From a candidate division WOR-3 bacterium (lineage in GTDB: Bacteria > Hydrothermota > Tepidihabitantia > Tepidihabitantales > Tepidihabitantaceae), in NCBI GenBank assembly GCA_965648905.1, contig CBFGIT010000047.1, positions 1-16,834 on the forward strand: DNA of 16,834 nucleotides, read 5' to 3'. Made by a program: the position numbers and the translations under genes. This document shows, piece by piece, positions 1-12,330 of this stretch (the first letter of the stretch is position 1; each line of letters starts with the position of its first letter). A model generated the notes under the pieces. It had not been told where the DNA came from. It was given only the letters and a program-made list of their open reading frames with translations, and did no database searches.

Positions 1-263
1 TTGTAACTGCCGTTCCGGTAGCCGGTCCGTGTCTCGGTCCGCTCACCCGGCTTGGCCTGCAGGTGGCCGACCAGCTGGGCCAGCATCACCCCTTCCATGA
101 GCCGTTTCAGGGCCTGGCGCATCGGGGCCATCATCGGCTCGGCCTCATCGTCGGCAAAGAAGTCCTTGTACTCCTGCCAGTGGTCGATATAGTGTTGCTG
201 CCAGCCAGCCGCCTCGCGCTTCGAGGTGCGGCTCAGGGTGTAGATGTAGTCATTGTCGGGCAT
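1..263 (-). CDS. IS256-family (Mutator-like) transposase, N-terminal part, runs off the window start
   Basis: Manual translation from ATG at 263 (SD AAGGAGA 7 nt upstream): MPDNDYIYTLSRTSKREAAGWQQHYIDHWQEYKDFFADDEAEPMMAPMRQALKRLMEGVMLAQLVGHLQAKPGERTETRTGYRNGSY. The HL..ER..R..YRNG.Y motif is typical of the IS256 transposase N-terminus. Absent from the ORF track because it has no stop in the window. Confidence 0.88.
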   Translation of the reverse strand, partial: MPDNDYIYTLSRTSKREAAGWQQHYIDHWQEYKDFFADDEAEPMMAPMRQALKRLMEGVMLAQLVGHLQAKPGERTETRTGYRNGSY

Positions 264-362
264 GGGCTGTTCTCCTTTGGTTTACTAACTTCACGGCCTG
301 AGAGAGGATACGCCCTGCCCGGCGCTTTTCCAGTCAATTTACACACAATCAAGGATACTACC
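1..362 (-). mobile_element. Left end of an IS256-family insertion sequence, terminal inverted repeat ~338-362
   Basis: Minus strand 362->338 reads GGTAGTATCCTTGATTGTGTGTAAA, resembling IS256-family ends (GG/GA start, ...TGTGTAAA), ~75 nt upstream of the transposase start. The other end is outside the window, so the boundary is uncertain by 1-2 nt. Confidence 0.75.
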
Positions 363-382
363 CGCGCGGGGCCTGACCGCGC

Positions 383-410
383 TTGACAGGCAGATAGTAA
401 TCGGCAATAT
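383..410 (+). promoter_or_regulatory. Candidate sigma70-type promoter for the NTPase gene
   Basis: TTGACA 383-388, 16 nt, CAATAT 405-410. An alternative -10 TATGAT at 408-413 would need a 19-nt spacer. Confidence 0.5.
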
Positions 411-636
411 GATGACATGACGAAGTCCGCAGCCGGCCCGGTTCCGTTAGTCTTGGGTAAGCGGAAAGATGAAAGACGTGACCGCGAAGCACCCCGTTAG
501 TTGGCCCCCAGCGAAGCCCGGTGTCAGCGCGTGTCGGACAGGCCGATTGCCGCCATCGTCGGCTAGGAGCTCCTGAGAGTCTCGAGTGTTTCGACGGCCT
601 GCCTAGGTATGCCGCACAAACGAAATGGAGGTATAG

Positions 637-2949
637 GTGACGAGTGAAGAGATCAAGCATCTGGCCAAACAGTTCCTCAGAACCTACAACTACCTTGCTA
701 AGGATGTCGACCCGCACGCCATCGTGTTCAGCCGGCCTACTGGACTCGGTGTCACAGATGAGATCCTCGTGTACATTCACAGGCGAGGCGCCGAAGCCGA
801 GCTGGAATCGGAACTCCGTTCACTGGCTAGGAGATTCGAGAGGGTGCCAGCCGGACCTGGTGGCAGACGCTTTTTCCTCGCGCCCGAACCGCTGGGCGTT
901 GCGCCGCCAGTCGTCAGTGAGTTCGGCTTCACATATCAGGTCCCGGCTTTTTTCTTCGACCGAGAGTTTACAAGTCTCAAGCCAACCACGACGCTCAAAC
1001 AGCTTGAGAGAGACGCTGCGAGGTTTGACCAAGAGCGCATCGACCAACCTTTTCGGACTGACGGTCATGCCGGGGCTGACCTGCTGGCGCACCTTCTATC
1101 TGAACTACGGACGCCATTGGAGCCGTCGCTCCGCATTGTCGTCGCACCAGCGGGATACGGAAAGACCGTTCTAATCGCGGGGCTCTATTCCAAGCTGAAG
1201 GAAGAGTTCACACGGAACAAGAATCAACAGAAGATGGGCATGCGTCCGCTCCTAATGCTACCAGGGCACCTTGGACGCGCCGCAGACCTCTCAACTCTCG
1301 TGAACAACTTCATCGGTGAAGAGTACGACTTCGGAATGCTCAGCGAGGAGGGTTTCTCATTCTGGGTGCGAAACAACTTTGGCGTGTGGCTCCTGGACGG
1401 CTTGGAAGAACTGATCTTGAAGTCTCCTGAGGAGTTCATGCTGGAACTACTCAATGACTACATCGCGGCGCCCAACACAGGCAACCCTCAAATAGTGGTT
1501 GCCGTCAGAAAGCCAATCTTGGCGACTTCGCCCGAACTCAAGAGCATCATTGATGACTACAAGGACTACGGTGTCCGGGTCTACGAGCTGGTTGACTGGT
1601 CAGAGACGCAAGCAGAGGCTTACTTCAGGAAGAATCTCCGAATCTCCGGCGCCGAGACCGAGGACTTCCTGCGTGAGTTCCGGCGGTCAGTTACCCTACG
1701 CGACATATGTCGTGTACCGTACTACTGCAGATTGGTTGCGGACCTAAGAAACGATGGCAAGATGCGGGCATTCGCCGACGGCTACGACCTGGTCAGTCAC
1801 GCGGTAAGCCAAATCTGCGAGCGCGAGTTTACGAAGAACCTCGATCCCGACGTGTTCCCCGTAACGACTCAGATGGAACTGCTTGCGGAACTCGCCGGCC
1901 AGCAGATGCGCGGCCACCGGATCACGCGGGAGCTTCTGACTGACCACGCTGAGGTCATATTGTCTGGCTGCCCCGAAGAAGTCAAGTTAAGTCAGACCGA
2001 GGCCATGAGACAGCACGCATTGCTGACTGGAGCCAGCTCGGGGAGCGACTCGGAGCTGGAGTTCACGCAGGACATCATCAAACAGTACCTGGAAGGCATG
2101 TACCTTGCTGGCGAGCTTGCCCGAATTAGAGTAGATGCGCTGCACCTGCAGGAGATGGAAACAGGGTCGTTGACGTTGGAGTTTCTCCGGAAACACACAT
2201 CCGACTTGGACTGGGCTGCGGTGATGTCGCATGCCTGCACTTTGTGTTCATCCCGGAATGACGAGGGTATCGGATTCCGCAACGCTGTGAAAGTCCTCTT
2301 GTCGTCCGGCGCACCCGACAAGGCTGCTTTCCTACGCGATGAGATGCAGGAGAAGAACCTCACGGGTATCGAGTTCAGAGGCCTTGCTCTCTCGTCAGTT
2401 CGTTTTTGCGGTTCCAAGCTTGACGGAGCGGTGTTCGCTGATTGCGACTTGGCGGGGTGCAATTTTGACGGTTGTCTCTTCCGGAATACGGCGTTTGACG
2501 GCCGGATTGAGTTGACTGGCGCCACTACGAAAGGCGCACTTTTCGAGGTCATCCGTGTGGATGGCAAAGTCATTGGTGACAAGAAGGCCATTGAGCGTTG
2601 GTTCTATGACAAGACCAAGGTCAAGCCGGAACACATCGAGCCGTGTCAGGCCGCCGTAAACACTCGCCGCGTCCTGGAGAAAGTCTTCCGCAAAGGCAGA
2701 GGAGGGAAACTGCCAATGCAGTTCCTGCTCCGAACGCGCTGCGAAGGCGTCTCTGCGGATAGATGTGTCAAGGCCTTAGTGAAGGCAGGATACCTGCGGG
2801 AAACCGGCGACTGGGTGAAACCTGCCACCATGCGGTTCGCTGAAATCACATGTTTCGTGGAGCGTGACTCTGCGACTGAAGGGCTACGTACGGTTCTTGA
2901 CGGTCTATGCGACGAACCGGGCTGCATCCACGTCCGGTCTCGCTGCTAG
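637..2949 (+). CDS. NACHT/STAND-type P-loop NTPase with pentapeptide repeats, putative defence or signalling protein
   Basis: 770 aa, GTG start with GGAGG at 627-631. Walker A APAGYGKT (1144-1167), Walker B WLLDGLEE (1387-1410), post-NTPase helical PYYC, winged-helix-like LEFTQDIIKQYL, pentapeptide repeats NLTGI-EFRGL-ALSSV-RFCGS-KLDGA-VFADC-DLAGC-NFDGC-LFRNT from 2356. Confidence 0.85.
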   Translation: MTSEEIKHLAKQFLRTYNYLAKDVDPHAIVFSRPTGLGVTDEILVYIHRRGAEAELESELRSLARRFERVPAGPGGRRFFLAPEPLGVAPPVVSEFGFTYQVPAFFFDREFTSLKPTTTLKQLERDAARFDQERIDQPFRTDGHAGADLLAHLLSELRTPLEPSLRIVVAPAGYGKTVLIAGLYSKLKEEFTRNKNQQKMGMRPLLMLPGHLGRAADLSTLVNNFIGEEYDFGMLSEEGFSFWVRNNFGVWLLDGLEELILKSPEEFMLELLNDYIAAPNTGNPQIVVAVRKPILATSPELKSIIDDYKDYGVRVYELVDWSETQAEAYFRKNLRISGAETEDFLREFRRSVTLRDICRVPYYCRLVADLRNDGKMRAFADGYDLVSHAVSQICEREFTKNLDPDVFPVTTQMELLAELAGQQMRGHRITRELLTDHAEVILSGCPEEVKLSQTEAMRQHALLTGASSGSDSELEFTQDIIKQYLEGMYLAGELARIRVDALHLQEMETGSLTLEFLRKHTSDLDWAAVMSHACTLCSSRNDEGIGFRNAVKVLLSSGAPDKAAFLRDEMQEKNLTGIEFRGLALSSVRFCGSKLDGAVFADCDLAGCNFDGCLFRNTAFDGRIELTGATTKGALFEVIRVDGKVIGDKKAIERWFYDKTKVKPEHIEPCQAAVNTRRVLEKVFRKGRGGKLPMQFLLRTRCEGVSADRCVKALVKAGYLRETGDWVKPATMRFAEITCFVERDSATEGLRTVLDGLCDEPGCIHVRSRC

Positions 2950-3017
2950 GACTGGCATTCGGACGCTGCCGGAGAATGGTCCGCGACTGCAGCGTCGTCA
3001 TCTCTTGTCTATCCCCC

Positions 3018-3281
3018 ATGCCCCCGCGCCAGCAGCTTGAGTCCCGCATCAGGTGTGCGCTCAACGTGCTGGGCATCGTGCCGGCGCAGCAGTTCGGTTA
3101 TCTGAGTTTCGGCCGGAGCGTGGCCAAGGCTCGGAGGTCAGTCAACGGGAAGGACCCGGTGACGCTCTGCGGAACCCTCGTGGAGCGCTACGCGAAGCTG
3201 GGCCTGGAGCGACCGGTGATGTACCGGCTGCTGGCCGCCGTGTTTACCATCCGGCCAGACCAGGACTGGCCTGCGAGCTAG
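3018..3281 (+). CDS. Small helical protein resembling the SIRV/Adnaviria coat-protein C-terminal domain, possibly 5'-truncated
   Basis: In-frame ATGs at 2976 and 3018. Codons from ~3030 are mostly G/C-ending like host genes. Motif L-x3-GI-x7-Y-x2-FG-x2-VA-K-A at 3060-3131. Start uncertain, no clear SD. Confidence 0.55.
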   Translation: MPPRQQLESRIRCALNVLGIVPAQQFGYLSFGRSVAKARRSVNGKDPVTLCGTLVERYAKLGLERPVMYRLLAAVFTIRPDQDWPAS

Positions 3282-3298
3282 AGCCGGCAGAGGCGAGG

Positions 3299-3340
3299 CA
3301 GAAGACAGAGTGCAGAATGCAAATGTCAAAGTGCAAAACG
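3299..3340 (+). repeat. Degenerate heptamer tandem array, 6 units
   Basis: cagaaga cagagtg cagaatg caaatgt caaagtg caaaacg. Confidence 0.75.
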
Positions 3341-3371
3341 GCGAGCAGCGAGTGGCGAGGCTGTCTTCCGC

Positions 3372-10528: not shown

Positions 10529-11320
10529 ATGCTGCGCCGTGTTCTGCTCGGAACCGCGCTGGTTGTCGTTGCCGTACTTGCCGTGTTCAGCCACCGACTC
10601 GCACTCGCGGCTCTGGTTGCGGCATGGAGCGTGCTTGCCACGCTTGAGTTCCTCAGCCTGCTGCGCCGGGCCGAGATTGAACTGAGCCGGTGGCTCCTGG
10701 GCGTGCTGAACCCGGCGATTGTTGCCGCGGCCTGCGTCGGGATGCTCCATGAGTTCCTGATTGTGCCGGTCGCCGTTGTGTTTCTGGCCGCGGTCGCCCG
10801 GCGCGACACCAAGCCGCGCATTCCGGTCTACGGGACGTTCGTCCTTATCTACCTCGGATTCCTGCCTGCCCATCTTGTCATGCTCAAGGGGCTGGCTCTT
10901 GAGCGGGGTCTTTCTTCGTGGCTCGTGCTCTTCCCGCTGGCGCTCACCTGGACCAACGACACCGCGGCCCTGCTGTTCGGCCGGCTCCTGGGCCGCCACA
11001 AGCTCTCGCCTGCAATCAGTCCGAACAAGACCGTGGAAGGTTATCTTGCCGGACTGGCGGTCTCGGCGCTGCTTGCAGCCTTCTATCTTTCGCGGCTGGA
11101 GCCGTTCGCCCATCAGCCGGTCTGGTGGCGGGCGGCAATCGGCATCGGTCTGGGCACGCTCGCCCAGTTCGGCGACCTGTTCGAGTCAATCTTCAAGCGG
11201 GCCGCAGGGCTGAAAGACAGCTCGGCCGCGCTGGCCGAGCACGGCGGGTTCCTCGACCGGGTTGACAGCCTGCTGTTCACGATTCCGGGGCTGTACTATC
11301 TGGTTCGGTACCTGCACTGA
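10529..11320 (+). CDS. cdsA: Phosphatidate cytidylyltransferase
   Basis: Hydrophobic protein with WTNDTAA, ISPNKTVEG, GDLFESIFKR, KDSS, HGGFLDRVDS. ATG 10529 follows GAGGAG. Confidence 0.95.
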   Translation: MLRRVLLGTALVVVAVLAVFSHRLALAALVAAWSVLATLEFLSLLRRAEIELSRWLLGVLNPAIVAAACVGMLHEFLIVPVAVVFLAAVARRDTKPRIPVYGTFVLIYLGFLPAHLVMLKGLALERGLSSWLVLFPLALTWTNDTAALLFGRLLGRHKLSPAISPNKTVEGYLAGLAVSALLAAFYLSRLEPFAHQPVWWRAAIGIGLGTLAQFGDLFESIFKRAAGLKDSSAALAEHGGFLDRVDSLLFTIPGLYYLVRYLH

Positions 11321-12330
11321 TGAGACTCACCGACCCGATCATCCGCGAAGGGCCACGGCTCAAGGTCAACTACGTTGCCTGCGATTCGCTTGGGACCAGA
11401 GGTATGTGTGTCTGCATCGAGACGCCGGACGTGGTCGTGACGGTAGACCCGGGTGCAGCGGTCGAACCCGGCCATTTCCCTTTGCCCGTCGAGCAGCGCC
11501 ATGCCCTGTTGAAGGAGCAGCAGGCTGCGGTGCGGGCCGCGTGTGCCCGGTCCCGGCTCATCGTCATCAGCCACTATCATCTGGACCATTTCTTCGACGC
11601 CCGCGACGCCGAATGCTACGGCGGCAAGGTGTTGTTTGTCAAGAACCCGGATGACATGCCGGCCAAGCAGCTCGGAACGGCCCGAGCATTTCACAAGACG
11701 ATTGACGGCCTGCCCGAGCAGGTTACCGTGGCCGACGGCCGGAAGTTCAAGTATCGCAAGACCACGGTTGCGTTTTCACCAGCGGTCTGGCACGGGGCTG
11801 AAGGCGCAGAGCCGGGCCGGGTGATTATGACCGAGGTCGGCTGGGGCAGAGAAAAGGTGCTGGTTTCGTCCGACGTCGGCGGTCCGTTGACGAGAGAGAC
11901 GACCGGCATTATCGTCAGCGCCAAAGCGCGGACCGTGATACTTGACGGTTATCCGACCTACCTGCTCGGCCAGTTTGCCACCGACTACAACCTGGTCCGG
12001 AGTATCGTGAACGTCTGCCGGATTCTGGCCGCGCCTGCGGTCAAGACTCTGGTGCTTGACCACCACATGGCCCGGGACTACCGCTATCCGGCGTTCTACA
12101 AGCTCGCCCATGACCGGGCCCGCGACCTGGGCAAGACCTTCGGTACTGCGGCTGAAGTGCTGGGCCGCACAAGCGTGGTGCTCGAAGGGTTCCAGAACTA
12201 CGGCCCGACCCGCTGGCACAAGTGGCAGCCGCTTGAGCGGGCTGAGGCACGCCGGGTTCTGGAGCGGGCGCGTGACGAAGGTCGGGTCACACCCGACTGG
12301 CTCGACGAGTTCGACCGCTGGGTTGTCTGA
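11320..12330 (+). CDS. UPF0282-like metallo-beta-lactamase-fold hydrolase
   Basis: DSLGTRGM, VDPGAA, ISHYHLDH, ADG, FS..VWHG, SDVGGP, LDHHMARD and TAAEVLG match the motif series of the mainly archaeal UPF0282 family. TGATG coupling with cdsA. Confidence 0.8.
   Translation: MRLTDPIIREGPRLKVNYVACDSLGTRGMCVCIETPDVVVTVDPGAAVEPGHFPLPVEQRHALLKEQQAAVRAACARSRLIVISHYHLDHFFDARDAECYGGKVLFVKNPDDMPAKQLGTARAFHKTIDGLPEQVTVADGRKFKYRKTTVAFSPAVWHGAEGAEPGRVIMTEVGWGREKVLVSSDVGGPLTRETTGIIVSAKARTVILDGYPTYLLGQFATDYNLVRSIVNVCRILAAPAVKTLVLDHHMARDYRYPAFYKLAHDRARDLGKTFGTAAEVLGRTSVVLEGFQNYGPTRWHKWQPLERAEARRVLERARDEGRVTPDWLDEFDRWVV

What the first reader, a model, noticed from the sequence alone, without database searches (positions are those of the whole stretch)
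637..2949. NLR-like NTPase with unusual architecture: degenerate REase-like N-domain, NACHT, pentapeptide repeats, Cys/His-tipped C-domain
Seen: the first ~110 aa have an alpha-beta-beta-beta-alpha-beta pattern (AKQFLRTYNY, IVFSR, EILVYIH, RFFLA) like Mrr-type restriction-endonuclease folds, but no (D/E)xK motif. The usual NACHT F-x-H motif reads FTQ. After ~9-12 pentapeptides comes a ~110-aa basic, winged-helix-like domain (CVKALVKAGYLRETGDWVK) with EPCQ and CDEPGCIH, possibly binding Zn. Established: bacterial NACHT/STAND proteins (bNACHT, Avs) are often anti-phage, and pentapeptide repeats in Qnr/MfpA mimic DNA. Inference: a candidate defence sensor with no evident catalytic effector, perhaps using a DNA-mimic to catch phage DNA-binding proteins. 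It lies next to an IS and by eye has more A/T-ending codons than the core genes.
Basis: partly seen in the sequence, partly recalled or inferred. Interest (0 to 1): 0.7.

Follow-up and report, generated by a model that had tools for sequence, protein, structure and literature searches.

The report
Dead-nuclease NLR with zinc winged-helix tip
This gene encodes a bacterial relative of animal NLR immune sensors, from a rare and scattered family that begins with a probably nuclease-like domain lacking the cutting residues and ends in a positively charged winged-helix domain with four conserved, likely zinc-binding residues; it likely works alone as an anti-virus switch that would be tripped by foreign nucleic acid, which nobody has tested.

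Summary
The ORF is real and belongs to a conserved ~780-aa family (76 of 81 full-length representatives keep the Cys/His tail). Layout: Mrr-like N-domain, NACHT module, 14 pentapeptides, winged-helix C-domain. The N-domain has lost its catalytic Lys family-wide (0 of 109). The C-domain is basic in 74 of 75 homologues and keeps C670/C758/C763/H765 in 72 of 75, so a zinc clasp is likely. FTQ is a recurring family variant (Gln in 23 of 75). The gene is foreign-looking, absent from 271 other genomes of its phylum, and has no fixed partner; 3 of 5 readable loci adjoin defence-like genes. The DNA-mimic idea is not supported: about 3.5 capped, near-neutral coils against eight in dimeric MfpA. Best reading (0.4): a stand-alone anti-phage NLR whose zinc winged-helix tip senses nucleic acid and whose dead nuclease domains act without catalysis; reversed polarity is the main rival. 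Defence of some kind: about 0.65. No function was tested. New variant of a known kind; this scan noted the family before in another genome (e1-1127411).

The parts
637..2949 (+). Whole gene, 770 aa: dead REase-like domain - NACHT - helical arm - pentapeptide beta-helix - zinc winged helix
637..960 (+). Mrr-like REase-fold N-domain without catalytic residues (res 1-108; H27 and Y46-x-H48 where Mrr has D and Q/E-x-K)
   Evidence: secondary structure; HHalign prob 84.9, E 6.4e-6, controls at most 23; residue counts; Atlas lead
1036..1641 (+). NACHT nucleotide-binding domain (res 134-335): Walker A 1144-1167, Walker B 1384-1410, sensor Arg291
   Evidence: Pfam NACHT weak, E 0.019; invariant G173, G175, K176, D254, E258, R291 in 75 of 75; NLRC4 Z 19.6
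1642..2121 (+). NACHT helical domain 1 and winged-helix domain (res 336-495), with FTQ at 2062-2070
2122..2352 (+). Helical arm (res 496-572), the most variable region of the family
   Evidence: mean pairwise identity 0.19 in 75 homologues
2353..2565 (+). 14 pentapeptide units (res 573-643), about 3.5 coils of beta-helix
   Evidence: Pfam PF00805 E 1.3e-5; parse and charge; Alr1298 Z 12.1, rmsd 1.6
2629..2946 (+). Basic winged-helix C-domain (res 665-770) with likely zinc ligands C670 (2644-2646), C758 (2908-2910), C763 (2923-2925), H765 (2929-2931)
   Evidence: zinc binding is inferred from conservation, geometry not measured
627..632 (+). Ribosome-binding site GGAGGT
   Evidence: sequence
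383..413 (+). Possible promoter: TTGACA at 383-388, TATGAT 19 nt later
   Evidence: sequence; the consensus scan, which allows 16-18 nt, found none, so weak
1..362 (-). 5' end of a Mutator/IS256-type insertion sequence (transposase start at 263), cut by the contig end; a neighbour, not part of the system

Best explanation
The protein is a single-gene NLR-type (NACHT) switch that likely defends against phage or other mobile DNA: its basic, probably zinc-clasped winged-helix tip would bind invader nucleic acid, which would open the NACHT module into an ATP-bound oligomer and cluster the N-terminal dead-nuclease domains, and these would arrest the cell or the invader without cutting. Shown here: the domain order, intact Walker motifs, family-wide loss of the nuclease motif, the conserved Cys3-His set, the conserved basic surface, rarity and patchiness, no fixed partner gene. 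From established NLR knowledge: the C-terminal region holds the switch shut and oligomerisation gathers the N-terminal domains. Inferred: the defence role, nucleic acid as the trigger, and the output (binding nucleic acid or recruiting a host or neighbouring enzyme). The pentapeptides are read as a rigid stalk, not a decoy.
For: NLR core: best structural matches are NLRC4, NOD2, NLRP3 (Foldseek E 1e-11; NLRC4 Z 19.6, rmsd 5.7, 399 aligned). Accessory: 1 of 272 genomes of its phylum; not upstream of rmlD in 4 of 4 informative same-family genomes; GC3 in the lowest 4%; relatives named from Syntrophobacteraceae, Chryseobacterium, Nanoarchaeota, Chloroflexota, Ca. Saccharicenans. Neighbours: L022 directly behind an LmuB-like ATPase (PADLOC E 3e-50) and an Mrr-like ORF; L016 behind a toxin-antitoxin pair and an AAA/PLD/AAA/HerA/methyltransferase cluster; L017 in an integrase-relaxase-coupling-protein element with a PDC-S06-like ATPase (E 2e-63). 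Tip: winged helix, net positive in 74 of 75, K/R at 682, 688, 728 in 97, 89, 89%; not hypervariable (identity 0.32 against 0.25 for the N-domain and 0.19 for the arm), which fits a constant ligand. Polarity: one member has a protein kinase fused in front of the dead nuclease (P0145); five 616-655-aa relatives keep NACHT (three with a detectable N-domain) but lack repeats and tip. Precedent: bNACHT01 is a stand-alone anti-phage NACHT needing its Walker A Lys (Kibby preprint, passages).
Against: No function tested. Only 5 loci had readable neighbours; 2 of them (the window and L034) lie among housekeeping genes, and no background rate of defence neighbours was measured. No PADLOC model fits the protein or 4 other full-length relatives beyond a Walker A stretch. 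Not found in phage, plasmid or viral contig collections. No catalytic effector, so the killing step is unexplained. The top fold matches of the tip are mostly transcription factors and are weak and tied (Z 6.2-7.5), which suits a regulator as well. All STAND triggers in Lee et al. 2026 are proteins (sections 11, 13). A recent paper reads inactive REase domains as sensors or decoys, not outputs (PMC12839542, passages). The kinase fusion is one case; the short relatives may be cut by contig ends or have a partner gene that I could not see.
Confidence: 0.4

Rival explanations
1. Defence switch with reversed polarity: the dead nuclease domain is the nucleic-acid sensor and the zinc winged helix is the output, binding and blocking or condensing DNA once the NACHT ring multiplies it.
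For: Inactive REase domains are proposed as non-enzymatic nucleic-acid sensors (PMC12839542, passages). [quoted passage not shown] A conserved aromatic (W 69, Y 26 of 109) fills the former catalytic position 46.
Against: Short relatives lack the whole C-module yet keep N-domain and NACHT; the one enzyme fusion is N-terminal (P0145).
Confidence: 0.2
2. Non-defence STAND regulator, laid out like MalT: NTPase, repeat sensor, C-terminal DNA-binding domain that controls transcription of host genes.
For: [quoted passage not shown]
Against: No shared neighbour or target operon in 5 loci; extreme rarity and patchiness (1 new hit in 1,601 sampled genomes of four other phyla) is unusual for a regulator with fixed targets; 3 of 5 loci adjoin defence-like genes.
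Confidence: 0.15
3. The N-domain is an atypical but active nuclease with a rearranged site, switched on by oligomerisation as in bNACHT25.
For: R/K33 (95 of 109), D/E41 (92 of 109) and E53 (86 of 109) are semi-conserved; it would supply the missing effector.
Against: Asp at the first catalytic position in only 32 of 109, no D/E at 46, no Lys at 48; no invariant polar residue before D108.
Confidence: 0.1
4. One reading: the pentapeptides are a DNA-mimic bait that catches phage DNA-binding proteins.
For: True pentapeptide beta-helix; MfpA and Qnr mimic DNA (PMC8145042, passages); median net charge -3 in the wide family.
Against: 14 units, about 3.5 coils, against eight coils joined head to head in an MfpA dimer; both ends are occupied by other domains; net charge -1 here and median 0 in the close family; Qnr family scores 12-17 bits against cut-offs of 240-480.
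Confidence: 0.07

Closest known systems
Bacterial NACHT / NLR-related anti-phage proteins (bNACHT; Kibby et al., bioRxiv 10.1101/2022.07.19.500537; sections 6 and 12 and passages read, tables and figures not seen)
   Same: NACHT module with the D[GAS]hDE-type Walker B; three-part layout; pentapeptide repeats, inactive domains, wHTH adaptors and 'hybrid' C-termini (repeats plus a small domain) are all in their catalogue; stand-alone gene like bNACHT01.
   Different: This combination is not named in the text I could read; neither the NA-iREase2 nor the NCC-H Pfam model matches; the WHD His is Gln here; no member tested that I could find.
bNACHT25 (Mrr-like REase - NACHT)
   Same: Mrr-like domain in front of a NACHT module (passage).
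   Different: Its REase is predicted active; here the motif is lost family-wide and the C-terminus is pentapeptide plus zinc winged helix.
Avs1-24 STAND receptors (Lee et al. 2026, PMC13581612; abstract, sections 5, 11, 13 read)
   Same: STAND switch with a C-terminal sensor region.
   Different: Their sensors are mostly TPR, WD40 or FGE-type of 400 aa or more and bind phage proteins; here about 275 aa follow the WHD; 'pentapeptide' occurs 0 times in the main text and in the 7 readable supplements.
MfpA / Qnr pentapeptide DNA mimics
   Same: Same beta-helix repeat.
   Different: Stand-alone eight-coil dimers; here about 3.5 capped coils inside a large protein.
MalT-type STAND transcription activators (layout recalled, not read here)
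   Same: NTPase, then repeats, then a C-terminal DNA-binding-type domain.
   Different: NACHT-type core, extra dead-REase head, winged helix with Cys3-His; MalT model matches only the Walker A stretch (E 0.094).

Membership tests
Bacterial NACHT (bNACHT) | Walker A GxxxxGK[ST] | tested here: met
   APAGYGKT 170-177; G173, G175, K176 in 75 of 75
Bacterial NACHT (bNACHT) | Walker B D[GAS]hDE signature (small residue, then two acidic residues) | tested here: met
   DGLEE here; D257 in 62 of 75, E258 in 75 of 75; definition
Bacterial NACHT (bNACHT) | HD1 and winged-helix extension after the NTPase | tested here: met
   NLRC4 match over residues 107-590, Z 19.6
Bacterial NACHT (bNACHT) | Conserved WHD histidine (NLRC4 H443) | tested here: not met
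   Gln478 in this copy; His in 48 and Gln in 23 of 75, at least 5 changes on the tree, so the family meets it only in part
Bacterial NACHT (bNACHT) | NTP-dependent phage protection | not testable with these tools
   needs a phage challenge
Mrr-like PD-(D/E)xK nuclease | REase fold | tested here: inconclusive
   Right element order; HHalign 84.9% to 24 Mrr_cat matches, 35% to the 7 canonical ones alone, controls at most 23%; Atlas top three Mrr_cat at 0.76-0.85, a lead only; the domain was not folded and searched alone
Mrr-like PD-(D/E)xK nuclease | Catalytic D and (D/E/Q)xK | tested here: not met
   Lys at 48 in 0 of 109; D/E at 46 in 0 of 109
Pfam NA-iREase2 (PF22723) | Score over the model's cut-off | tested here: not met
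   No match at the gene in G000, G272, G273; none for the N-fragment
Pfam NCC-H (PF22730) | Score over the model's cut-off | tested here: not met
   No match at the gene in G000, G272, G273; none for the C-fragment
Qnr/MfpA DNA mimics | Eight coils, head-to-head dimer rod | tested here: not met
   14 units, capped; feature from PMC8145042
Qnr/MfpA DNA mimics | DNA-like acidic surface | tested here: inconclusive
   Net charge -1 is only a proxy; surface potential not computed
Named Avs families | Match to an Avs model; large TPR/WD40/FGE sensor | tested here: not met
   No PADLOC 2023 hit; sensor type differs. PADLOC predates Avs7-24
STAND clades of Lee et al. 2026 | Listed among the 589 clades and scored for defence | not testable with these tools
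   Main supplementary tables too large to read; 7 readable files have no hit
   Preprint supplement not readable; 'clade 11' occurs 0 times in the main text
Winged-helix DNA-binding domains | Three-helix bundle with wing | tested here: met

The most novel reading that the evidence does not exclude
The family is a nucleic-acid-sensing bacterial NLR: a zinc-clasped winged helix on a beta-helix stalk reads a structural mark of invader DNA or RNA (ends, replication intermediates or unusual helices) and fires a NACHT oligomer with no enzyme of its own. That would be the first STAND receptor with a non-protein trigger that I could find, a possibility Lee et al. 2026 leave open, and an enzyme-free effector route.
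Probability: 0.2. Interest if true: 0.82.

Novelty: new variant of a known kind. Interest (0 to 1): 0.5.

Why it matters
The mapped bacterial STAND receptors detect phage proteins and most kill with an enzyme. This family has kept, across lineages at 21-47% identity, a dead nuclease at one end and a basic zinc winged helix at the other, with no partner gene. It is a compact single-gene test case for two open questions: can a bacterial NLR sense nucleic acid, and how do enzyme-free NACHT proteins stop phage? The zinc winged-helix domain matches no Pfam model. Its recurring His-to-Gln change at the site whose mutation hyperactivates NLRC4 and bNACHT25 is a natural probe of autoinhibition.

Tried and rejected
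PADLOC and NCBIfam gave no family for the protein. NA-iREase2 and NCC-H models do not match. No relatives in plasmid, phage or viral contig collections. Phylum samples gave almost no new loci: 1 new hit in 401, only the centre genomes, 1 of 5; only two candidates were scored per genome in the large samples. The Kibdelosporangium hit (L018/L035) shares NACHT and repeats but not the N- or C-domain and was dropped from the neighbourhood count; L023 was dropped because its contig holds little beyond the gene. Complex prediction of N-domain with C-domain plus zinc returned no answer. No sequencing run was listed. No PDB sequence match for the C-domain profile; Foldseek gave nothing at E 0.001 for it. 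A search for the C-domain in other architectures returned only 10 family members, weak evidence. Z-alpha/ZBP1 rows (Z 6.4-6.5) are tied with dozens of other winged helices and were not used as evidence. An exact empty-site comparison failed: the same-genus contig starts 95 bp before rmlD. The careful tree did not finish; the quick tree was used. The published Cell version of Kibby et al. is not held. Literature searches that found no description of this architecture.

Full report
Observation. The ORF 637-2949 encodes 770 aa with a good ribosome-binding site. Pfam finds pentapeptide repeats at 574-634 and a weak NACHT match at 168-334 (E 0.019). The AlphaFold model built on 30 relatives is confident (mean pLDDT 89, pTM 0.76). 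Its best structural matches are NLRC4, NOD2 and NLRP3 (NLRC4 Z 19.6, rmsd 5.7, 399 aligned).

The family. The word search returned 31 relatives at 36-47% identity, 30 of them over at least 94% of the length. The exhaustive profile search listed 150 representatives; 81 are 700-900 aa and 76 of these end in the Cys-Cys-His tail. Of 218 fetched proteins, 145 carry N-domain, NACHT, repeats and C-domain together (the set is redundant, includes fragments, and the profiles were built from part of it). Named members are a Syntrophobacteraceae and a Chryseobacterium MAG, a Nanoarchaeota archaeon, Chloroflexota and Ca. Saccharicenans; databases call them hypothetical or pentapeptide proteins. The Atlas holds two matching unnamed clusters of 68 and 57 members.

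N-domain. The order of elements fits the REase fold. A profile of 109 N-domains aligns with a profile of 24 Mrr_cat matches at 84.9% (E 6.4e-6). It scores 35% against the 7 canonical ones alone and 86% against a degenerate subfamily; reversed and 30 block-shuffled controls reach at most 23%. The Atlas gives Mrr_cat clusters first, at lead-level scores. So the fold is likely but was not shown by a structure search. The catalytic motif is gone family-wide: Lys at 48 in 0 of 109, W or Y at 46 in 95 of 109, Asp at 27 in 32 of 109. R/K33, D/E41 and E53 are semi-conserved, which leaves a small chance of an atypical site. The Pfam NA-iREase2 model does not match.

NACHT module. G173, G175, K176, D254, E258, R291 and R396 are invariant in 75 diverse members, so the NTPase is under selection. 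Position 478 is His in 48 and Gln in 23 of 75, with at least 5 changes forced on a quick tree. Kibby et al. report that changing the matching His hyperactivates NLRC4 and bNACHT25 (passage); the repeated natural Gln suggests this family tolerates it (inference).

Repeats. Fourteen units make about 3.5 coils with a net charge of -1 (family medians 0 and -3), with the arm on one side and the C-domain on the other. MfpA has eight coils and mimics DNA as a head-to-head dimer (PMC8145042, passages). The same review notes that such repeats can simply be scaffolds. I read them as a stalk.

C-domain. Folded alone on 114 sequences it reaches pLDDT 93.7. The 50 listed matches are dominated by winged-helix proteins (CAP, SarA, IscR, MarR, PadR types) at tied, middling Z of 6.2-7.5, which gives the fold but no function. 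Residues 671-731 are net positive in 74 of 75 members, with K/R at 682, 688 and 728 in 97, 89 and 89%. C670, C758, C763 and H765 are all present in 30 of 30 close and 72 of 75 wide members, while other cysteines outside the repeat core are not kept in the wide set. A Cys3-His zinc clasp tying the tail to the start of the domain is the simple reading; I could not measure the geometry. It is not Pfam NCC-H. The domain is more conserved (0.32) than the N-domain (0.25) or the arm (0.19).

Context. The gene is in 1 of 272 genomes of its phylum and was newly found in 1 of 1,601 sampled genomes of four other phyla. In 4 of 4 informative same-family genomes other genes lie upstream of rmlD. GC3 is 0.671, with 34 of 876 long ORFs as low. 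Five loci have readable neighbours. L022 lies directly behind an LmuB-like ATPase and an Mrr-like ORF. L016 follows a toxin-antitoxin pair and an AAA/PLD/AAA/HerA/methyltransferase cluster. L017 sits in an element with integrase, relaxase and coupling protein, near DUF4747, NA37 and a PDC-S06-like ATPase. L034 (GC 0.57 against 0.64, with a Uma2 gene about 1 kb away) and the window lie among housekeeping genes. No neighbour is shared, so the gene acts alone or with host factors. Three of five is suggestive, with no background measured. The IS upstream is real, but 4 of 6 copies of its end lie 15-21 nt before a TTGACA, like promoter-targeting Mutator elements (PMC3942029, passages), so it is weak evidence about the gene.

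Mechanism. By NLR logic (established) the part after the winged-helix domain holds the switch shut and senses, and oligomerisation gathers the N-terminal domains. Two weak signs fit this polarity: one member has a kinase fused ahead of the dead nuclease (P0145), and five 616-655-aa relatives lack repeats and tip. A conserved basic winged helix in the sensor position points to nucleic acid as ligand (inference). The output would be non-catalytic. I give this 0.4, reversed polarity 0.2, a non-defence regulator 0.15, an atypical nuclease 0.1, DNA mimicry 0.07. Against it: all triggers mapped by Lee et al. are proteins, and inactive REases have been proposed as sensors or decoys (PMC12839542, passages).

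Known and new. It is a bacterial NACHT by three of four sequence features tested, the WHD His failing in this copy. Each part type appears in the Kibby catalogue (sections 6 and 12). I found no paper describing this combination, but Kibby Table S1 and the large tables of Lee et al. could not be read and may list it. Added here: the family-wide dead site, the winged-helix fold and basic surface of the tail, the Cys3-His set, the His/Gln switching and the case against mimicry. Verdict: new variant of a known kind, interest 0.5.

Noticed in passing
window 337-388; G000 C6, C24, C46, C49, C41: The end of the Mutator/IS256-type IS lies 15-21 nt before a perfect TTGACA in 4 of 6 copies (TTGATG in a fifth). 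Promoter targeting is described for p-MULT 3 and the ISKra4 group, while PMC3942029 calls IS256 insertion random; the subfamily of this element was not determined.
   Followed up: partly
protein P0145 (1083 aa): Family member with a Ser/Thr kinase fused ahead of the dead nuclease domain, the only enzyme fusion seen among the 150 listed representatives.
   Followed up: partly
proteins P0162, P0163, P0170, P0172, P0178: Sister group of 616-655 aa with the same NACHT type (N-domain detected in three) but no repeats or zinc winged helix; completeness and neighbours unknown.
   Followed up: partly
window 3016-3320 and 3290-3360: A degenerate ORF-like stretch 83% identical to G000:C55:7288-7571, followed by a short-unit repeat dispersed at about 20 places in the genome.
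   Followed up: no
L040-L056, L058: A conserved ~320-aa protein in many relatives of this genome ends in an Mrr-like domain that keeps the Asp but lacks the Q/E-x-K motif.
   Followed up: no
L016:2153-9230: Six-gene cluster AAA, PLD, AAA, HerA-like, unknown, methyltransferase with no full PADLOC system match; looks like a restriction-type defence operon.
   Followed up: partly
L017:3938-6559: DUF4747, a probable membrane protein and an NA37 gene in a row inside a mobile element; no PADLOC hit.
   Followed up: no
L035:6445-12121: Kibdelosporangium NACHT-pentapeptide gene followed by an ATPase-like ORF and a deoxyribosyltransferase-like/S1 ORF near integrase-like genes; a different architecture.
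   Followed up: partly
window 11320-12330: Archaeal-type metallo-beta-lactamase-fold protein (NCBIfam PRK04286 models, below cut-off) behind cdsA.
   Followed up: no
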